From a virus, in UHGV virus genome UHGV-0181186: DNA of 41,148 nt. One strand, 5' to 3'. The notes beneath the pieces are model-generated. The model made no database searches. It worked only from the letters and a program-made list of their open reading frames with translations, and was not told the DNA's origin. Shown here one piece after another: positions 11,598 to 15,851 of the stretch. How positions within the stretch are numbered: position 1 is the stretch's first letter; each line of letters starts with the position of its first letter. The translations under genes were made by a program, and so were the position numbers.

Positions 11598-11969
11598 ATG
11601 AAAAACAGAACAAACAAAGGCCAGTTTAAAAAAGGCCAATCTGGAAACCCATCTGGAAGACCAAAAGGCTCTCGCAACAAAAGCTCACTTGTAAAAGCTC
11701 AACTGACCATTGACAATTCTGCTGAGTTTGCTGCAAAGTTATTTGAAGCGATTGTTACAAGGGATGCTGCTAAGCTTGCAGAGTTCGGGTTAAACACAGA
11801 TGACGTAACCATCAAGAGTATGATTGAGGTCGGTAAAACTATCTTTACTCACTCAGCAGGTGAGATGAAAGCACTTGCAGCAGACACTAAGAAGACTCCT
11901 GATAATGGTGGTCAACAACAGACAGATAACAAACCAACGTTCTCTGCTGTAGCGACTCTTAAAAAATAA
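11598..11969 (+). CDS. hypothetical basic protein with N-terminal GNPSGRPKG motif
   Basis: 123-aa ORF; K/R-rich N-terminus (KKGQSGNPSGRPKGSRNK); possible DNA-binding or terminase-small-like role is speculative. Confidence 0.6.
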   Translation: MKNRTNKGQFKKGQSGNPSGRPKGSRNKSSLVKAQLTIDNSAEFAAKLFEAIVTRDAAKLAEFGLNTDDVTIKSMIEVGKTIFTHSAGEMKALAADTKKTPDNGGQQQTDNKPTFSAVATLKK

Positions 11970-11980
11970 TTTTAAAAGGT

Positions 11981-12019
11981 GTTGACAGACTCTACAAAGT
12001 TGCTCTAAAGTCTGTCACA
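11981..12019 (+). promoter_or_regulatory. promoter-like TTGACA box overlapping a perfect 9-bp inverted repeat (candidate operator)
   Basis: gTTGACAGACTc…(17 nt)…AGTCTGTCAc; the two arms are exact reverse complements; just upstream of the Ro60-like gene. Confidence 0.4.
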
Positions 12020-12050
12020 TCAAACAACAAATGAGAGAAGAGAGTAAAAT

Positions 12051-13466
12051 ATGAGCGAATTATTTAAACATGCGCACCTTCATGCAGGTCGAACTGAAAA
12101 TGGTGCTGTAAACCATACTTCATCAATGTCTGCTCTTGTAGACTTTTACAAAGCTGCTGGTTCAAGCCGTAGCAATGTAGAAATCTTACCAGACTTGTTC
12201 TACAAAGCTTTGCGTGAGGATGTTGATGTTGCAGTTCGTATTTTGCTTCATATGCGAGATGTACGAGAAGGTATGGGTGAGCGTAAAGCCTTCAGAACTG
12301 TTTTGCTTCAAGCAATTGAAGATAAAGTTTTAGAGCCTACACAGGTTCTTCGCATTATGGATAAGATTGCAGAACTTGGTCGTTTTGATGACTTCAAAAT
12401 CTTCGTGGGTACTTGTTTCGAGACAGATGCCTTCAAACATTTAGAAGCAGCATTACTAGACCCTGCAACAGCAGGTTTGGCGGCTAAGTGGTTACCACGA
12501 GTCAAACCACGTCATAAGCAGTTTGTAAAACGTTTCTGCAAGTTTGCCAACTTGAGCGAGAAAGAGTACCGCACACTGTTATCTGCACTATCTGATACAG
12601 TTGAGCAAAAAATCTCTGCTAATGAGTTTGGCAAGATTGACTACAGTAAGGTTCCCTCACTTGCTGCTGCACGTTACCAAAAACTGTTTAACCGTAAGGA
12701 TGGAGAACGTTACAAAGCTTACATTGAGTCCTTATCAAAAGGTGAGGCTAAGATTAATGCTGGTGCTGTTTACCCATACGATGTGATTAAATCTGTCAAG
12801 CATGGTAATGCAGATGTTGCTAATGAGCAGTGGAAAGCACTACCAAACTGGATGGCAGAAGGTGAAAACATCTTGTGTATGTCTGATGTATCAAGTTCAA
12901 TGTCTTGGGTGAATTTTGGCTCCATTACTGCTCTGGATATTGGTGTATCACTTGCCTTGTATGTAGCAGAACGCAATACAGGTTGCTTTAAGAATGAGTT
13001 GATGGTTTATTCAACAAACCCTCACTTCATCGAACTGAGTGGTGATTTACGAAACCGTCATCGTCAGGTGATGCGACACGTTGAATATGGCTCAACTAAC
13101 TTACAAGCAGCTTTTGACCGCATTCTTGAGACAGGCAAAAGAAACAACTTGACTCAGAAAGATATGCCAAGTAAGCTTATCATCTTCTCCGATATGGAGT
13201 TTAATCAGGTTGATGGGGCTAACGGTCGTACAAACTTTGAAGCAATTCAGAGTAAGTACAAAAAAGCTGGATATGAGATGCCACAACTGGTATTCTGGTA
13301 CTTAGCAAACCGTAATGGTACTTGCGAAGTATCTGTTAAGGATAACGGTGTAGCAATGGTATCAGGGTTCTCTCCAGCCACTTTAAAAGCTCTGCTTGGT
13401 GGTGAGAAGTTTGACCCAATCAGTGTAATGCTCAAAGCAGTAATGATTGACCGTTATATCTGGTAA
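12051..13466 (+). CDS. Ro60/Rsr-like protein (TROVE-like N-terminal region plus C-terminal vWA domain with MIDAS motif)
   Basis: 471 aa; DxSxS MIDAS motif (CMSDVSSSMS), downstream IIFSDMEFN and …GFSPATL… segments resemble the Ro60 vWA domain by recollection; helical N-terminal region. Confidence 0.6.
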   Translation: MSELFKHAHLHAGRTENGAVNHTSSMSALVDFYKAAGSSRSNVEILPDLFYKALREDVDVAVRILLHMRDVREGMGERKAFRTVLLQAIEDKVLEPTQVLRIMDKIAELGRFDDFKIFVGTCFETDAFKHLEAALLDPATAGLAAKWLPRVKPRHKQFVKRFCKFANLSEKEYRTLLSALSDTVEQKISANEFGKIDYSKVPSLAAARYQKLFNRKDGERYKAYIESLSKGEAKINAGAVYPYDVIKSVKHGNADVANEQWKALPNWMAEGENILCMSDVSSSMSWVNFGSITALDIGVSLALYVAERNTGCFKNELMVYSTNPHFIELSGDLRNRHRQVMRHVEYGSTNLQAAFDRILETGKRNNLTQKDMPSKLIIFSDMEFNQVDGANGRTNFEAIQSKYKKAGYEMPQLVFWYLANRNGTCEVSVKDNGVAMVSGFSPATLKALLGGEKFDPISVMLKAVMIDRYIW

Positions 13467-13484
13467 AAAGTTTTAAAAAGGGTA

Positions 13485-13513
13485 TTGACAATGTGTTTAA
13501 TACCCTTTAATAT
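13485..13513 (+). promoter_or_regulatory. sigma70-type promoter (TTGACA-N17-TAATAT)
   Basis: Consensus -35 with 17-nt spacer and near-consensus -10; preceded by aaaaagggta; about 120 nt upstream of the first tRNA. Confidence 0.65.
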
Positions 13514-13575
13514 GTTCTACATAGAAACGAAATGAGAGCTTTTCTAAGATACTGAAAAATATTTTAAAAAAGTTC

Positions 13576-13604
13576 TTGACAACCACTAAAAAATAATGTT
13601 AAAG
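13576..13604 (+). promoter_or_regulatory. candidate promoter (TTGACA-N17-TTAAAG)
   Basis: aaaagttcTTGACA with weak -10; same upstream motif family. Confidence 0.35.
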
Positions 13605-13631
13605 TGTTTACATAGAGTTTGAAAAGTTTAT

Positions 13632-13708
13632 CTCTGTTTAGCTCAGCTTGGTAGAGCGTTCCGTTTGGGGCGGTAAGGCCGGAGGTTCAAGTCCTCCAAC
13701 AGAGACCA
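13632..13708 (+). tRNA. tRNA-Pro (anticodon TGG)
   Basis: Hand-folded cloverleaf: 7-bp acceptor ctctgtt/aacagag, T-arm ggagg-ttcaagt-cctcc, anticodon loop tttgggg, CCA encoded. Confidence 0.75.
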
Positions 13709-13715
13709 AATTAAT

Positions 13716-13793
13716 GTTCCAGTAGACAAAATGGTAAAGTCACCACTCTTTCAAAGTGGATATCTGAGGGTTCAAATCCCTTCTGGAACGCCA
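13716..13793 (+). tRNA. tRNA-Glu (anticodon TTC)
   Basis: Acceptor gttccag/ctggaac, anticodon arm ccact-ctttcaa-agtgg, T-loop ttcaaat, CCA encoded. Confidence 0.75.
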
Positions 13794-13800
13794 GTTTTGA

Positions 13801-13872
13801 CAGAAGACCAATTACAGCAAACTTAATCTACTCATCTGAAAGTTAATCGGACAAAGAAGATATTTGGTCTGG
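13801..13872 (+). ncRNA. candidate structured RNA repeat element 1 (conserved CAGAAGACC…TTACAGCAA 5' end, GGTCTGG 3' end)
   Basis: 5' and 3' ends can pair (AGACCAA/TTGGTCT) enclosing an AT-rich variable loop; no T-arm; related copies at 13967, 14421 and 14508. Confidence 0.35.
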
Positions 13873-13883
13873 TCATTAAGAAT

Positions 13884-13960
13884 TGCGGGTATAGAGAAAG
13901 GGCGTCTCACATGTCTCATTAGCATGGTATCGGCAGGTTCGACTCCTGCACCCGCCTCCA
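13884..13960 (+). tRNA. tRNA with anticodon CAT (Met or Ile2/lysidine)
   Basis: Anticodon arm catgt-ctcatta-gcatg, T-arm gcagg-ttcgact-cctgc, CCA encoded; position 1:72 appears mismatched. Confidence 0.7.
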
Positions 13961-13966
13961 AATTTA

Positions 13967-14030
13967 CAGAAGACCGTTTACAGCAATATTTATTAAATTT
14001 TTAGCGGAAAAATTGAAAGATACGGTCTGG
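13967..14030 (+). ncRNA. candidate structured RNA repeat element 2
   Basis: cagaagaccgtttacagcaa … acggtctgg; terminal stem AGACCGT/ACGGTCT. Confidence 0.35.
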
Positions 14031-14043
14031 TAATACTAAACAT

Positions 14044-14120
14044 GGTTAGGAAGCACATAAGGTATGTGCGGTCGCCTGTTAAGCGAATGGCACAGGGTTC
14101 GAATCCCTGACTAACCGCCA
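14044..14120 (+). tRNA. tRNA-Asn (anticodon GTT)
   Basis: Acceptor ggttagg/actaacc, D-arm gcac…gtgc, anticodon loop ctgttaa, T-arm caggg-ttcgaat-ccctg, CCA encoded. Confidence 0.75.
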
Positions 14121-14189
14121 AATTTAGGAGAGAAGTGATTGCTCACCGATTTGTAAGGTGCAAGTCCTTAGCCTGAATAGAAATTAAAT

Positions 14190-14277
14190 GTGTCGTTATC
14201 CCGTAGATGGTAGCGGTGGGGACTGTAAATCCCTTGTCATTGAGACTCGGTAGGTTCGACTCCTACACGGCACACCA
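14190..14277 (+). tRNA. tRNA-Tyr (anticodon GTA), long variable arm
   Basis: 88 nt; acceptor gtgtcgt/acggcac, anticodon arm gggga-ctgtaaa-tccct, T-arm gtagg-ttcgact-cctac, CCA encoded. Confidence 0.7.
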
Positions 14278-14282
14278 ATAAA

Positions 14283-14359
14283 GGCTATGTAGTTTAACTG
14301 GAGAAAATACTCCCCTGTCACGGGAGATGATGTGAGTTCAAGTCTCATCGTAGCCGCCA
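14283..14359 (+). tRNA. tRNA-Asp (anticodon GTC)
   Basis: Acceptor ggctatg/cgtagcc, anticodon arm ctccc-ctgtcac-gggag, CCA encoded. Confidence 0.75.
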
Positions 14360-14384
14360 ATTTTGAGAGGGCTGTTTAGCCCAT

Positions 14385-14418
14385 CCCTTAAAGAGTTCTT
14401 ACGAGTATTCTTTAAGGG
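14385..14418 (+). other. 10-bp perfect-stem hairpin (possible terminator or RNA processing site)
   Basis: cccttaaaga…tctttaaggg inverted repeat; a second hairpin gggctgtttagccc lies immediately upstream. Confidence 0.45.
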
Positions 14419-14420
14419 AG

Positions 14421-14497
14421 CAGAAGACCAAATACAGCAAGAATGTATGAAATTTCAAGCCAATTTAATTTTGAAAATTTAAAACTTGGTCTGGCTC
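14421..14497 (+). ncRNA. candidate structured RNA repeat element 3
   Basis: cagaagaccaaatacagcaa … cttggtctgg. Confidence 0.35.
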
Positions 14498-14507
14498 AAC
14501 AAATTTA

Positions 14508-14639
14508 CAGAAGGCCGTTTACAGCAAAACTTAAACAATCTATTTCTCCGGTAAAGAAAAGGCGAAGGTTCGATTCCTTCACTCGGCAGATGTCGAGTTG
14601 GTGTAATGGTAGCACTTAAGATGATAAACAACGGTCTGG
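14508..14639 (+). ncRNA. candidate Y-RNA/YrlA-like RNA with circularly permuted tRNA-like module
   Basis: Order along the strand: conserved 5' motif, T-arm (gaagg-ttcgatt-ccttc), acceptor-like 7-bp hairpin capped by a tetraloop (actcggc-agat-gtcgagt), D-arm-like (gtg-taatggtag-cac), then a 3' strand (aacggtctgg) able to pair with the 5' motif. Confidence 0.4.
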
Positions 14640-14646
14640 TAATTAC

Positions 14647-14778
14647 CTTTGTAGATAAGTTATTAAGCTTACTTGTGAGTATGCGACCACAAAGGGTGAA
14701 TGGGTAAATTCTAGATTTAAACCCAAAAAGGCACATCGCTACAGACCTTAAGCAAGTCTGGGTAGCTTATCTACAAAG
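14647..14778 (+). other. long-range 13-bp perfect inverted repeat enclosing structured sequence
   Basis: ctttgtagataag (14647-14659) and cttatctacaaag (14766-14778) are exact reverse complements; interior contains hairpins cagac…gtctg and gggtaaat…atttaaaccc. Confidence 0.4.
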
Positions 14779-14788
14779 ATAATTTAAT

Positions 14789-14864
14789 GGAAGTGTAGCA
14801 GAATGGTGATGCGGCAGACTTTTAATCTGACAGGCGATGGGTTCGAATCCCTCCACTTCTACCA
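14789..14864 (+). tRNA. tRNA-Lys (anticodon TTT)
   Basis: Acceptor ggaagtg/cacttct, anticodon loop cttttaa, CCA encoded; paralog of the tRNA at 16377; T-stem weak. Confidence 0.65.
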
Positions 14865-14868
14865 ATAT

Positions 14869-14945
14869 GGTTCAGTCGCAGATAAGGTAATGCAAGGGTC
14901 TCATAAGCCCTATGAATGTGGGTTCGATTCCCATCTGAACCTCCA
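14869..14945 (+). tRNA. tRNA with anticodon CAT (second copy; Met or Ile2)
   Basis: Acceptor ggttcag/ctgaacc, anticodon arm agggt-ctcataa-gccct, CCA encoded. Confidence 0.7.
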
Positions 14946-14946
14946 A

Positions 14947-15022
14947 GCTGGTATAGTTAAGAAGGTTATAACACTCCCCTGATAAGGGAACATCGGTGGT
15001 TCGATTCCACCTACCAGTACCA
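14947..15022 (+). tRNA. tRNA-Ile (anticodon GAT)
   Basis: Acceptor gctggta/taccagt, anticodon loop ctgataa, T-arm ggtgg-ttcgatt-ccacc, CCA encoded. Confidence 0.7.
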
Positions 15023-15037
15023 ATTTCAATAAAGTTG

Positions 15038-15066
15038 TTGACATTGAGATGTGACTACTTTATAGT
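15038..15066 (+). promoter_or_regulatory. sigma70-type promoter (TTGACA-N17-TATAGT)
   Basis: aaagttgTTGACA…17 nt…TATAGT inside the tRNA array. Confidence 0.65.
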
Positions 15067-15270
15067 AACCTTAGTTTTCGTTGCGTAGCGTCTATTTTGC
15101 AAATTTAAAATAAATGCAAACGACAATGTTTTTCTGGCAGTAGCTTGATAGGCTAAACACCAGTGAGGTCTTCCAATCCCTCATCAAAGAATTTGGCGTA
15201 CTCGCCCACGGTATGATTAATAAGGTGGGCATCTTTAAGGGCTTTCTAAGAGAGTCTTTAAAGATAATTA

Positions 15271-15352
15271 CGGGGCGTATCTCAGCGGTCTTCTAAACCG
15301 CCGTTAACCGAGTAAGTGGAGTATGCGGGTTCGAGTCCTGCCGCCTCGACCA
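15271..15352 (+). tRNA. noncanonical tRNA-like gene, anticodon TCT (Arg) with no recognisable D-arm
   Basis: Acceptor cggggcg/cgcctcg plus ACCA, perfect anticodon arm gcggt-cttctaa-accgc, T-arm gcggg-ttcgagt-cctgc; only 7 nt between acceptor and anticodon stem, and a 23-nt variable region. Confidence 0.45.
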
Positions 15353-15366
15353 ATTTTGGAGAAATC

Positions 15367-15714
15367 ATGAAAACTTGTATTAGGTGCAAACTTAGCAAGG
15401 ATGAAAATGATTTCTACATGAAAGATGGTAGGAGAACTCATTCATACTGTAAAAAGTGTGTTAATGAGCAAACCATAGAAAGACAAAGAGCACTTAAACT
15501 CTTAGCTATTGAGTACAAAGGTGGGGTTTGTCATGATTGTGGTAAGAAGTATCATCCAGCAGTGTATGACTTCCATCATTTGAATCCTTCAGATAAAGAT
15601 TTTAACATTGGTCATAGGAAAAGCCTTAAGTTCTCTCAAGAACTAAAAGATGAACTTGACAAATGTGTTTTGCTATGTTCAAATTGCCATAGGGTAAGAC
15701 ATGCAAAATATTAG
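15367..15714 (+). CDS. HNH endonuclease (homing-endonuclease-like)
   Basis: CxxC…CxxC zinc-binding pairs (CIRCKL, CKKC, CHDCGK, CSNCH) and HH…N…H HNH motif; GGAG RBS; the ORF-track 5' extension overlaps a tRNA and was trimmed. Confidence 0.8.
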   Translation: MKTCIRCKLSKDENDFYMKDGRRTHSYCKKCVNEQTIERQRALKLLAIEYKGGVCHDCGKKYHPAVYDFHHLNPSDKDFNIGHRKSLKFSQELKDELDKCVLLCSNCHRVRHAKY

Positions 15715-15851
15715 TTAGCAGATTACTTAGACGACCTTAGCGGGTCTTCCTGTAGGGAGGTGGTCTGTATCTCATGTTTTCCAGAACATGTAAATAATCT
15801 GAGAAGGGGCTTTACAGTGTTGAGATAATACGGTAAGCTTCGAATTATAGT

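What the first reader, a model, noticed from the sequence alone, without database searches (positions are those of the whole stretch)
11981..14639. Phage-encoded Ro60 (Rsr)-like protein next to candidate Y-RNA-like elements
Seen in sequence: the 471-aa product of 12051-13466 has a DxSxS MIDAS motif (SDVSSSMS) and downstream segments laid out like a vWA domain, with a helical N-terminal region. From memory of Ro60 family sequences (not searched), this matches a TROVE plus vWA architecture. Established knowledge: bacterial Ro60 orthologs (Rsr) are usually encoded beside their Y-RNA partners, some of which mimic tRNA. Inference: the repeated structured elements immediately downstream, and especially the permuted tRNA-like locus at 14508-14639, are candidate RNA partners. 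A perfect 9-bp inverted repeat overlaps the promoter-like box upstream of the gene.
Basis: partly seen in the sequence, partly recalled or inferred. Interest (0 to 1): 0.85.

Follow-up and report, generated by a model that had tools for sequence, protein, structure and literature searches.

The report
Phage Ro60-like protein with Y-like RNAs
A Felix O1-type phage encodes a very divergent look-alike of the RNA-binding ring protein Ro60, and next to it four small RNA genes of an apparently undescribed family found beside this protein in most of the distant relatives examined, which points to an unrecognised branch of the Ro60/Y-RNA system in viruses of bacteria.

Summary

Downstream, inside the tRNA cluster, lie four co-oriented units: 13798-13875, 13964-14033, 14418-14497 and 14505-14642. 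They share a 7-bp terminal stem, a 2-nt spacer, the box NC(A/C)GCAA (often followed by (A)CUUAA), and a G after the 3' strand. Unit 4 also carries a circularly permuted tRNA-like body (T-arm, closed 7-bp acceptor stem, D-arm), the topology of bacterial YrlA.

The same stem-plus-box module lies on the gene's strand within 4 kb of DUF2828 homologues (33-48% identity):
- 63 of 80 viral loci.
- 33 of 80 bacterial-genome loci.
- 142 matches on the gene strand against 12 on the other; shuffles give about 16.

The stem covaries heavily, and no protein-coding neighbour is conserved.

A 2024 preprint already noted Ro60-like structure for Bas63 gp130, probably the orthologue, and guessed at Y RNAs without identifying them. 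The YrlA box GNCGAA is absent. Binding and expression are untested.

Verdict: a new variant of the Ro60/Y-RNA kind.

The parts
11982..12017 (+). Promoter-like site (TTGACA, 18 nt, TAAAGT) overlapped by a perfect 9-bp inverted repeat (11983-11991 / 12009-12017), upstream of the Ro60-like gene
   Evidence: function not tested
12051..13466 (+). Ro60-like protein gene, 471 aa: helical repeat ring (about aa 1-263) plus vWA domain with a complete MIDAS motif. Pfam DUF2828 + DUF7788, PHROG 850
13477..13513 (+). 12-bp hairpin directly after the stop codon, overlapping a promoter-like site (TTGACA 13485, TAATAT). A second promoter-like site lies at 13576-13605 ahead of the tRNA/RNA cluster
13798..13875 (+). 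Unit 1, short Y-like RNA. Outer stem UGAC/GUCA; 7-bp stem 13805-13811 / 13864-13870; box ACAGCAA 13814-13820 followed by ACUUAA; G 13871
   Evidence: 22.6 bits, E 0.0035
13964..14033 (+). Unit 2, short Y-like RNA. Outer stem UUAC/GUAA; stem 13971-13977 / 14022-14028; box ACAGCAA 13980-13986; G 14029
   Evidence: 28.7 bits, E 1e-4
14418..14497 (+). Unit 3, short Y-like RNA. Outer stem GAGC/GCUC; stem 14425-14431 / 14486-14492; box ACAGCAA 14434-14440; G 14493
   Evidence: 18.1 bits, E 0.049
14505..14642 (+). Unit 4, long Y-like RNA of YrlA-type topology. Outer stem UUAC/GUAA; stem 14512-14518 / 14631-14637; box ACAGCAA 14521-14527; helix CUUAA 14530-14534 / UUAAG 14616-14620; variable-arm hairpin 14543-14559
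14564..14615 (+). Circularly permuted tRNA-like core of unit 4. T-arm 14564-14580 (loop UUCGAUU); acceptor 3' strand 14581-14587; loop AGAU; acceptor 5' strand 14592-14598; UG; D-arm 14601-14615 (loop AAUGGUA)
   Evidence: 45.7 bits, E 5e-9, local; ARAGORN calls no tRNA here

Best explanation
The gene encodes a highly divergent Ro60-type RNA-binding ring protein: a helical-repeat toroid closed by a vWA/MIDAS domain. The four downstream units are its partner small RNAs, functional analogues of Y RNAs.

Proposed biogenesis (inferred). The RNAs are transcribed with the tRNA cluster from the promoters at about 13485 and 13576. They are released when the flanking tRNAs are processed.

Proposed binding (inferred). 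Each RNA folds so that its 5' and 3' ends form a 7-bp stem. The stem is followed on the 5' side by the single-stranded box NCAGCAA(A)CUUAA and on the 3' side by a conserved G. This shared module is the protein-binding site.

Proposed role of the variable interior (inferred). It acts as an effector module. In unit 4 it is a circularly permuted tRNA mimic, as in bacterial YrlA. It could recruit or decoy a tRNA-recognising host factor, or tether the ring to an exoribonuclease.

Proposed function (inferred). The resulting RNP acts in RNA surveillance and/or counter-defence during infection. The likely Bas63 orthologue gp130 is reported to counter the Ppl defence system.

Shown: predicted fold similarity; RNA structure conservation and covariation; gene-RNA co-location and co-orientation across distant relatives.

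Inferred: transcription and processing, physical binding, and the function.
For: Protein:
- The AF2 model has pLDDT 88.6 and pTM 0.88.
- The Foldseek top 10 are all Ro60/TROVE, E 1.6e-8 to 1.7e-6.
- The MIDAS residues are invariant.

RNA structure:
- On a hand-registered seed of 9 sequences from phages with 39-48% identical proteins, 98.6% of cells pair and 19 of 23 pairs show double changes. Partner columns slid by 1-3 give about 40% pairing.
- The terminal stem and the D-stem were not used to select these sequences.
- On 102 distinct matches the terminal stem is 97.4% paired, and all 7 pairs change on both sides.

Co-location:
- The model gives 112 matches at E<=1 in 80 viral loci plus the window, all on the gene's strand.
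- 95 of them carry stem plus box. They lie in 55 viral loci plus the window, at median gaps of 160 nt upstream and 290 nt downstream.
- A model-free pattern scan finds 142 on the gene strand against 12 on the other. Shuffles give about 16 for both strands. 64 of 81 sources, the window among them, have at least one.
- In an independent set of 80 bacterial-genome loci, all 76 matches are on the gene strand. 45 carry stem plus box, in 33 loci, mostly just upstream of the gene.
- No protein-coding neighbour is conserved; the best real cluster covers 13 of 80 loci.
- 26 of the 49 viral loci without any nearby tRNA still have the RNA.

YrlA likeness:
- My model hits canonical YrlAs beside true TROVE genes in actinophages at 31-36.6 bits.
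- Rfam YrlA hits four DUF2828-linked long forms at 24.7-41.9 bits. It hits canonical phage YrlAs at 34-36.6 bits.

Literature:
- Bas63 gp130 has high structural similarity to Ro60, lies directly upstream of the tRNAs and counters Ppl (PMC11482910).
- YrlA is a permuted tRNA mimic encoded beside Rsr (PMC4201824; 10.1101/312249).
Against: - There is no sequence-level TROVE match. Pfam shows none at E<=1. Searches against solved-structure sequences with the single protein and with a profile find nothing. hhalign gives only 41.7% probability, over the vWA part.
- The RNAs lack the Ro-binding box GNCGAAN0-1G of bacterial Y RNAs.
- Window unit 4 gets no Rfam YrlA hit even at E<=10.
- Single-sequence folding energies of the four units are unremarkable, z -1.0 to -2.1.
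- At least 11 viral loci have no element within 4 kb even with filters off.
- In a reverse search most elements sit in large tRNA arrays. The gene was visible in the held stretch for only 8 of 31. A primary link to tRNA arrays is therefore not fully excluded.
- There are no expression or binding data.
Confidence: 0.62

Rival explanations
1. The stem-plus-box hairpins are mainly cis-acting operators. The protein, or another factor, binds them in the untranslated regions of its own transcript to control translation or stability. The copies among the tRNAs are by-products.
For: In many loci a minimal 41-49-nt hairpin ends directly at the Shine-Dalgarno sequence of the gene. Examples are L011 (gap 7 nt...UAAUUCUG GAGG), L018, L051, L059, L073 and L080. 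In bacterial-genome loci most copies lie 50-350 nt upstream of the gene.
Against: - In the window and other Felix-like phages the units lie 340-1050 nt downstream, behind separate promoter-like sites and between tRNAs.
- Copies occur in tandems of up to four (L104).
- Copies also occur far from the gene inside tRNA arrays.
- Long forms carry an elaborate tRNA-like body that an operator would not need.
- This reading still requires the protein to bind the module, so it complements the main explanation more than it replaces it.
Confidence: 0.15
2. The elements belong to phage tRNA arrays: processing punctuation, spacers or tRNA-derived relics. They co-occur with DUF2828 only because that gene also tends to sit in tRNA islands. 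The protein acts on tRNAs or something else, not on these RNAs.
For: - A reverse pattern search found 34 elements in 31 stretches. Nearly all lie between tRNAs, directly after a tRNA 3' end, in stretches holding up to 38 tRNAs.
- The gene was seen in the held stretch for only 8 of the 31.
- 31 of 80 viral loci have tRNAs near the gene, all co-oriented with it.
Against: - 26 of the 49 tRNA-free loci still carry the element, often 10-60 nt from the gene.
- Bacterial-genome loci show it immediately upstream of the gene.
- The T4 tRNA cluster, in a stretch with no DUF2828 gene annotated, has no such element.
- Several reverse-search contigs are known to hold the gene elsewhere: L170 shares a contig with L059, L175 with L073, and L172 with L253.
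- A conserved single-stranded box plus a covarying stem is typical of a protein-binding site.
Confidence: 0.13
3. The protein is a vWA/MIDAS protein with a non-RNA role, such as a co-chaperone or protein-protein adaptor. The Ro60 resemblance is convergent or a modelling artefact, and unit 4 is a decayed product of recombination between neighbouring tRNA genes.
For: Sequence-level homology to Ro60 is not established. vWA domains are widespread, and many structural hits are vWA-only.
Against: - Permuted tRNA-like units with different sequences but the same architecture recur beside homologues in unrelated phages, with compensatory changes.
- Chance relics would not do this.
Confidence: 0.05

Closest known systems
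Bacterial Rsr (Ro60) with YrlA/YrlB RNAs (Salmonella Typhimurium, Mycobacterium smegmatis; Chen et al. 2014, PMC4201824; Rfam RF02553)
   Same: - A ring-plus-vWA protein is encoded beside several co-oriented small RNAs.
- Each RNA has a stem formed by its 5' and 3' ends, next to a conserved box.
- One RNA carries a circularly permuted tRNA mimic (T-arm, closed acceptor stem, D-arm).
- Shorter companions lack the tRNA-like body.
- My model cross-detects canonical YrlAs, and Rfam YrlA detects some DUF2828-linked long forms.
   Different: - The protein is Pfam DUF2828+DUF7788, not TROVE+vWA_Ro60.
- The conserved box is NC(A/C)GCAA(A)CUUAA following a 7-bp stem, not GNCGAAN0-1G.
- There is no RtcB/RtcA neighbourhood.
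- Window unit 4 is not recognised by Rfam YrlA.
Canonical Ro60 genes of actinobacteriophages with YrlA-like RNAs (e.g. Mycobacterium phage Sparky gp36, Streptomyces phage Beuffert gp100)
   Same: The gene is phage-encoded and embedded in or next to a tRNA cluster, with permuted tRNA-like RNAs upstream on the same strand.
   Different: - These are true TROVE proteins, 37-38% identical to Xenopus Ro60.
- That search finds 357 phage records, and neither Escherichia nor Salmonella appears among the organism names listed.
- Their RNAs carry GUCGAA / CGGUUAUC boxes.
Thermus phage phiLo Ro60 with Yrl1/Yrl2 (PMC12135203; PDB 9KOP, 9L5Y)
   Different: It is a TROVE-domain protein, and its Yrls were found through the CGAA motif. 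No tRNA-like module or CAGCAA box came up in the passages I read.
Bas63 (Felixounavirus) gp130, PhageMaP preprint (PMC11482910)
   Same: It is very probably the orthologue: same genus, and the gene lies directly upstream of the tRNA stretch. It is reported to be structurally similar to Ro60 and to counter the Ppl defence system. The authors speculate that some annotated tRNAs are Y RNAs.
   Different: No partner RNA was identified there. The candidates found here are unannotated intergenic units, not annotated tRNAs. I could not retrieve the Bas63 record to confirm orthology.
Phage T4 stable RNAs C and D (species 1 and 2) in the T4 tRNA cluster
   Same: They are small stable non-tRNA RNAs co-transcribed within a phage tRNA cluster.
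   Different: They show no stem-plus-box module and no match to the model. No DUF2828 gene is annotated in the 8-kb T4 stretch examined.

Membership tests
Ro60 / TROVE (Pfam PF05731 + PF25045 vWA_Ro60) | Significant match to the TROVE profile | tested here: not met
   Pfam at E<=1 returns only DUF2828 (3.9e-30) and DUF7788 (1.7e-43). Vertebrate Ro60 gives TROVE + vWA_Ro60 in the same test.
Ro60 / TROVE (Pfam PF05731 + PF25045 vWA_Ro60) | Sequence-profile homology to Ro60 | tested here: inconclusive
   hhalign of 37 homologues against 17 vertebrate Ro60s gives probability 41.7% and E 2.7e-4, over the vWA domain and the preceding helix only. The Ro60 profile held vertebrates only.
Ro60 / TROVE (Pfam PF05731 + PF25045 vWA_Ro60) | Fold: helical-repeat ring closed by a vWA domain | tested here: met
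Ro60 / TROVE (Pfam PF05731 + PF25045 vWA_Ro60) | MIDAS motif in the vWA domain | tested here: met
   D279-x-S281-x-S283, T349 and D381 are invariant in 37 homologues.
Ro60 / TROVE (Pfam PF05731 + PF25045 vWA_Ro60) | Binds Y RNAs on the outer surface and misfolded RNA ends in the central hole | not testable with these tools
   Needs biochemistry or a solved complex.
YrlA (Rfam RF02553) | Circularly permuted tRNA-like domain: T-arm, closed acceptor stem, D-arm, with the ends joined through an anticodon-stem-like helix | tested here: met
   Unit 4 sequence and fold. A model of this architecture scores 45.7 bits and also finds canonical YrlAs.
YrlA (Rfam RF02553) | GNCGAAN0-1G box near the 5' end (putative Rsr site) | tested here: not met
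   The 5' region of all four units reads ...AGA-AGRCCNN-NU-ACAGCAA. The only GGCGAAG in unit 4 is the start of the T-stem. Motif definition from PMC4201824.
YrlA (Rfam RF02553) | Score at or above the Rfam gathering threshold (69 bits) | tested here: not met
   The window gives no hit at E<=10. Relatives L010, L028, L079 and L011 score 24.7-41.9 bits. Canonical phage YrlAs also score only 34-36.6 bits.
YrlA (Rfam RF02553) | Encoded within about 2 kb of a Ro60 orthologue on the same strand | tested here: inconclusive
   Met with respect to the Ro60-like DUF2828 gene: the units lie 340-1050 nt downstream on the same strand. The neighbour is not a TROVE orthologue by sequence.
Pfam DUF2828 / DUF7788, PHROG 850 | Profile matches above the curated thresholds | tested here: met
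   105.5 and 148.9 bits against cut-offs of 29 and 27.1. PHROG 850 matches at E 7.8e-184 over the full length.
Ordinary tRNA (for unit 4) | Contiguous cloverleaf with an anticodon loop and a free acceptor end | tested here: not met
   ARAGORN finds no gene at 14505-14642. Rfam tRNA gives only a partial 22-bit match. The acceptor stem is closed by the loop AGAU, and there is no anticodon loop.

The most novel reading that the evidence does not exclude
DUF2828 proteins and the stem-plus-CAGCAA RNAs form a separate, ancient and very large sister branch of the Ro60/Y-RNA ribonucleoproteins.

- The family has about 5,800 protein clusters at 50% identity.
- It is the form of the system seen here in tailed phages of Gram-negative hosts and in (pro)phage-like regions of Clostridia genomes.
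- It has its own RNA recognition code.
- It uses sets of modular adaptor RNAs: tRNA mimics, a CCUUUCUGGAGGGGAAAG-type module, and minimal hairpins.
- The phage uses these RNAs to tether or decoy host RNA-handling or defence factors, which would explain the reported anti-Ppl activity.
Probability: 0.45. Interest if true: 0.85.

Novelty: new variant of a known kind. Interest (0 to 1): 0.72.

Why it matters
Ro60/Y-RNA particles are a classic but still poorly understood RNA-surveillance system, and their bacterial and phage versions have so far been found by searching for TROVE proteins.

- The protein family is invisible to those searches. Canonical Ro60 retrieves 357 phage records, with no Escherichia or Salmonella phage among the organism names listed.
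- The family is nevertheless large: 5,807 clusters at 50% identity. It still carries DUF names in Pfam.
- Linking it to a defined, easily recognisable RNA module gives a concrete partner to test.
- It would also explain unannotated gaps in phage tRNA islands.
- It provides a handle on how the likely Bas63 orthologue gp130 counters the Ppl defence system.
- It offers a natural comparison for how Ro-type rings recognise RNA, because the box differs while the architecture is the same.

Tried and rejected
- Sequence searches against solved structures, with the single protein and with a 37-sequence profile, found no Ro60. NCBIfam gave nothing.
- hhalign against human Ro60 alone reached 26.6% probability. 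Against a vertebrate Ro60 alignment it reached 41.7%, over the vWA region only.
- MAFFT misaligned the acceptor and D region of the RNAs. I therefore trimmed loops by hand to equal length, left the stems untouched, and built the model from that. The seed is thus an edited alignment. T-arm and acceptor pairing were selection criteria of my scan, so their pairing counts are not independent.
- I looked for conserved protein neighbours such as RtcB, ligases or nucleases. None exists.
- T4 stable RNAs C and D are not related.
- Eleven loci without elements were re-searched with filters off. They yielded only one weak hit, so the RNA is truly absent within 4 kb there.
- Reverse association, from RNA to gene, could not be settled. 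Only parts of the contigs are held, and the locus lists are capped at 80.
- I tried to fetch the Bas63 record to confirm that gp130 is this ORF. MZ501111, MZ501081 and MZ501084 are other BASEL phages, and MZ501085 is too short to be Bas63. Orthology remains an inference.
- The GGCGAAG string in unit 4 matches the YrlA box pattern but is the T-stem, so I rejected it as a Ro-binding box.


Full report
**Source and setting.**
- The window is a Felixounavirus. Region 11981-14800 is 97% identical to Salmonella phage Felix O1 and matches 260 phage records.
- In Felix O1 RefSeq the ORF is ORF42, annotated 'RNA-binding protein'. Other records call it 'vWFA protein' or hypothetical.
- The gaps that hold the four units described below carry no annotation.
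- ARAGORN finds 25 tRNA genes at 13632-19204, all on the + strand.

**Checking the observation.**
- ORF 12051-13466 encodes 471 aa with the string SDVSSSMS.
- In an alignment of 37 homologues (41-89% identity) the MIDAS residues D279, S281, S283, T349 and D381 are invariant.
- The 9-bp inverted repeat 11983-11991 / 12009-12017 overlaps both hexamers of a promoter-like site.
- Four direct-repeat copies of CAGAAGRCCnnUACAGCAA start at 13801, 13967, 14421 and 14508. Each is followed 56-125 nt later by GGUCUGG.
- All four fold the same way. An outer 4-bp stem differs between copies in a compensating manner: UGAC/GUCA, UUAC/GUAA, GAGC/GCUC, UUAC/GUAA. Then comes an AGA/G internal loop, then a 7-bp stem.
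- Unit 4 contains, in this order: a T-arm with loop UUCGAUU; a 7-bp acceptor stem closed by AGAU; U-G; and a D-arm with loop AAUGGUA. A 5-bp helix (CUUAA/UUAAG) sits where the anticodon stem would be, and there is a variable-arm hairpin.

**The protein.**
- Pfam gives DUF2828 and DUF7788 and no TROVE. PHROG 850, 'RNA-binding protein', matches end to end.
- Sequence searches against solved structures find nothing.
- An AlphaFold2 model built on the 37-sequence alignment is confident: pLDDT 88.6, pTM 0.88.
- The ten best Foldseek hits against the PDB are all Ro60/TROVE structures aligned over the full length (E 1.6e-8 to 1.7e-6, TM 0.53-0.64 normalised by query length, except 0.35 for D. radiodurans Rsr 2nvo). 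vWA-only hits follow at E>1e-3.
- Profile-profile comparison with vertebrate Ro60 is weak. Probability is 41.7% and E 2.7e-4, covering the helix VYPYDV / IHPFHIL and the vWA domain.
- Ro60-likeness is therefore supported by predicted fold and not established by sequence.
- The family is large: 5,807 clusters at 50% identity with E<=1e-3.

**The RNA family.**
- I scanned 80 viral loci encoding homologues of 39-48% identity for a T-arm followed directly by a closed acceptor hairpin.
- Clean permuted tRNA-like units followed by D-arms turned up in L011, L018, L021, L028, L029, L030, L050 (two) and L079.
- Each of these has, upstream, a 7-nt strand, a 2-nt spacer and the box NC(A/C)GCAA. Downstream each has the complementary 7 nt followed by G.
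- The stem sequences differ completely between phages.
- On a hand-registered seed of nine, 98.6% of cells pair and 19 of 23 pairs show changes on both sides. With partners slid by 1-3 columns pairing drops to about 40%.
- The T-arm and acceptor pairings were selection criteria. The terminal stem and D-stem were not.
- A covariance model built from this seed found 112 matches at E<=1 in the 80 loci plus the window, every one on the strand of the gene.
- 95 of them carry stem, box and G. They lie in 55 loci plus the window, at median distances of 160 nt upstream and 290 nt downstream of the gene.
- On the 102 distinct matches the terminal stem is 97.4% paired, and all seven pairs change on both sides. 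The consensus is A/U-G-R-W-U-N-N. That alignment is fitted to the model, which favours pairing.
- A model-free pattern scan gave 142 occurrences on the gene strand against 12 on the other, and about 16 in shuffles for both strands together. 64 of 81 sources have at least one.
- With filters off, the model finds all four window units and nothing comparable elsewhere in the 41 kb.

**Forms of the RNA.**
- Long forms (105-190 nt) carry the permuted tRNA-like body.
- A second class carries a conserved CCUUUCUGGAGGGGAAAGCAAAAACUCGCC module.
- Short forms (41-76 nt) are a hairpin with an A-rich loop that begins with the box, often extended to CAGCAA(A)CUUAA.

**Independent tests and controls.**
- In 80 loci from bacterial genomes and MAGs (33-42% identity, not used to build the model), all 76 matches lie on the gene strand. 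45 carry the module, in 33 loci. Most lie 50-350 nt upstream, sometimes as three or four tandem copies.
- ORF clustering found no conserved protein neighbour.
- tRNAs lie within 4 kb in 31 of 80 viral loci. 26 of the 49 tRNA-free loci still carry the RNA.
- Eleven loci have none even with filters off. This also shows that the model's false-positive rate is low.
- The T4 tRNA cluster, including RNAs C and D, has none.
- A reverse search with AGGNTNNNTNCAGCAAACTTAA returned 31 stretches. 32 of their 34 elements have the complementary strand plus G. Nearly all sit between tRNAs in large arrays.
- The gene was within the held stretch in 8 of the 31, and is known elsewhere on the contig for at least three more. 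The rest cannot be checked.

**Comparison with known Y RNAs.**
- Bacterial YrlA is a circularly permuted tRNA mimic whose ends form the Rsr-binding stem. It carries a GNCGAAN0-1G box and is encoded beside rsr (PMC4201824; 10.1101/312249).
- Canonical Ro60 retrieves 357 phage records, mostly actinophages; neither Escherichia nor Salmonella appears among the organism names listed.
- In two of them (Sparky, Beuffert) the gene also sits among tRNAs. Rfam YrlA hits there at 34-36.6 bits, and my model hits the same RNAs at 31-36.6 bits.
- Rfam YrlA also hits DUF2828-linked long forms at 24.7-41.9 bits. It does not hit window unit 4.
- The actinophage RNAs carry GUCGAA / CGGUUAUC boxes. The present family carries NCAGCAA.
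- So the architecture is shared and the recognition box is different.

**Literature.**
- The PhageMaP preprint reports that Bas63 gp130 is structurally similar to Ro60, lies directly upstream of the tRNA genes and counters the Ppl defence. It guesses that some tRNA genes are Y RNAs (PMC11482910). No RNA was identified there.
- Thermus phage phiLo Ro60 binds two phage Yrls and host PNPase (PMC12135203).
- I found no paper describing the RNA family or linking DUF2828 to it. The search covers open-access text only.

**Interpretation.**
- The conserved unit is the gene plus the RNA module. The most economical reading is a Ro60/Y-RNA-type particle with a different recognition box.
- Minimal hairpins that abut the gene's ribosome-binding site in many loci suggest that the same module also serves for autoregulation. 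This is an inference.
- Transcription, processing, binding and function are not shown.

**Verdict.** This is a new variant of a known kind, of substantial interest.

Noticed in passing
window 15038-15352: A tmRNA-like region lies behind a near-consensus promoter (TTGACA 15038 / TATAGT).
- 15107-15139 reads GCA AAC GAC AAT GTT TTT CTG GCA GTA GCT TGA, i.e. ANDNVFLAVA-stop. This resembles the E. coli ssrA tag ANDENYALAA.
- There are weak Rfam tmRNA hits: RF00023 at E 0.0028, and permuted tmRNA at 29 bits.
- A tRNA-like element with a CCA end follows at 15272-15352. It has acceptor CGGGGCG/CGCCUCG, a good T-arm, a UCU anticodon-like loop and almost no D-arm. Rfam tRNA scores it 31.7 bits; ARAGORN does not call it.
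- The order, tag region before the complete tRNA-like part, fits neither standard nor permuted tmRNA.
   Followed up: partly
window 14641-14784: A large hairpin directly after unit 4: 22-nt arms, 91% complementary, with a 100-nt interior. Folding energy is -44.3 kcal/mol, z -5.3. Function unknown, and not annotated in Felix O1.
   Followed up: no
window 14369-14420 and 14120-14190: Two adjacent strong hairpins follow tRNA-Asp (z -5.5), with no U-tract. A 70-nt spacer between tRNA-Asn and tRNA-Tyr contains a T-arm-like AAGGUGCAAGUCCUU (z -2.6).
   Followed up: no
window 11983-12017, minus strand: Read on the minus strand, the promoter inverted repeat is GACAGAC-UU-UAGAGCAA-CUUUGUAGA-GUCUGUC-A. 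This resembles the RNA module (7-bp stem, UU, NCAGCAA, CUU...) with one mismatch in the box and A instead of G after the stem. Probably coincidence.
   Followed up: no
window 15316-15714: The HNH endonuclease ORF listed from GTG 15316 would overlap the tRNA-like element. It more likely starts at ATG 15368, which is preceded by GGAG. Pfam HNH matches at E 0.0068. HNH genes interrupt the tRNA cluster, as in Felix O1.
   Followed up: partly
L007, L008, L010, L029, L032 (e.g. L008 3129-3237): A subclass of the RNA family (104-112 nt) replaces the tRNA-like body with a conserved CCUUUCUGGAGGGGAAAGCAAAAACUCGCCAAAA module. It usually lies next to a tRNA-like long form in the same locus.
   Followed up: no
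L011 1760-1800, L018 2855-2895, L051 3902-3950, L059, L073, L080: Minimal 41-49-nt versions of the hairpin end exactly at the Shine-Dalgarno sequence of the DUF2828 gene (e.g. ...UAAUUCUG GAGG). This suggests translational autoregulation.
   Followed up: partly
L050 5524-5641; L010 8601-8704: One long form has a closed acceptor loop that reads GCCAAUU, i.e. an encoded discriminator plus CCA. Cleavage by RNase P could therefore yield a CCA-ended half, as reported for M. smegmatis YrlA. Separately, L010 gives a weak full-length Rfam tmRNA hit (20.5 bits, E 2.7e-4) near its DUF2828 gene.
   Followed up: no
window 11598-11969: The gene just upstream, co-oriented with the Ro60-like gene, is a DUF5681 protein with a basic N-terminus. 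It is conserved only within Felix-like loci: 6 of 80.
   Followed up: partly
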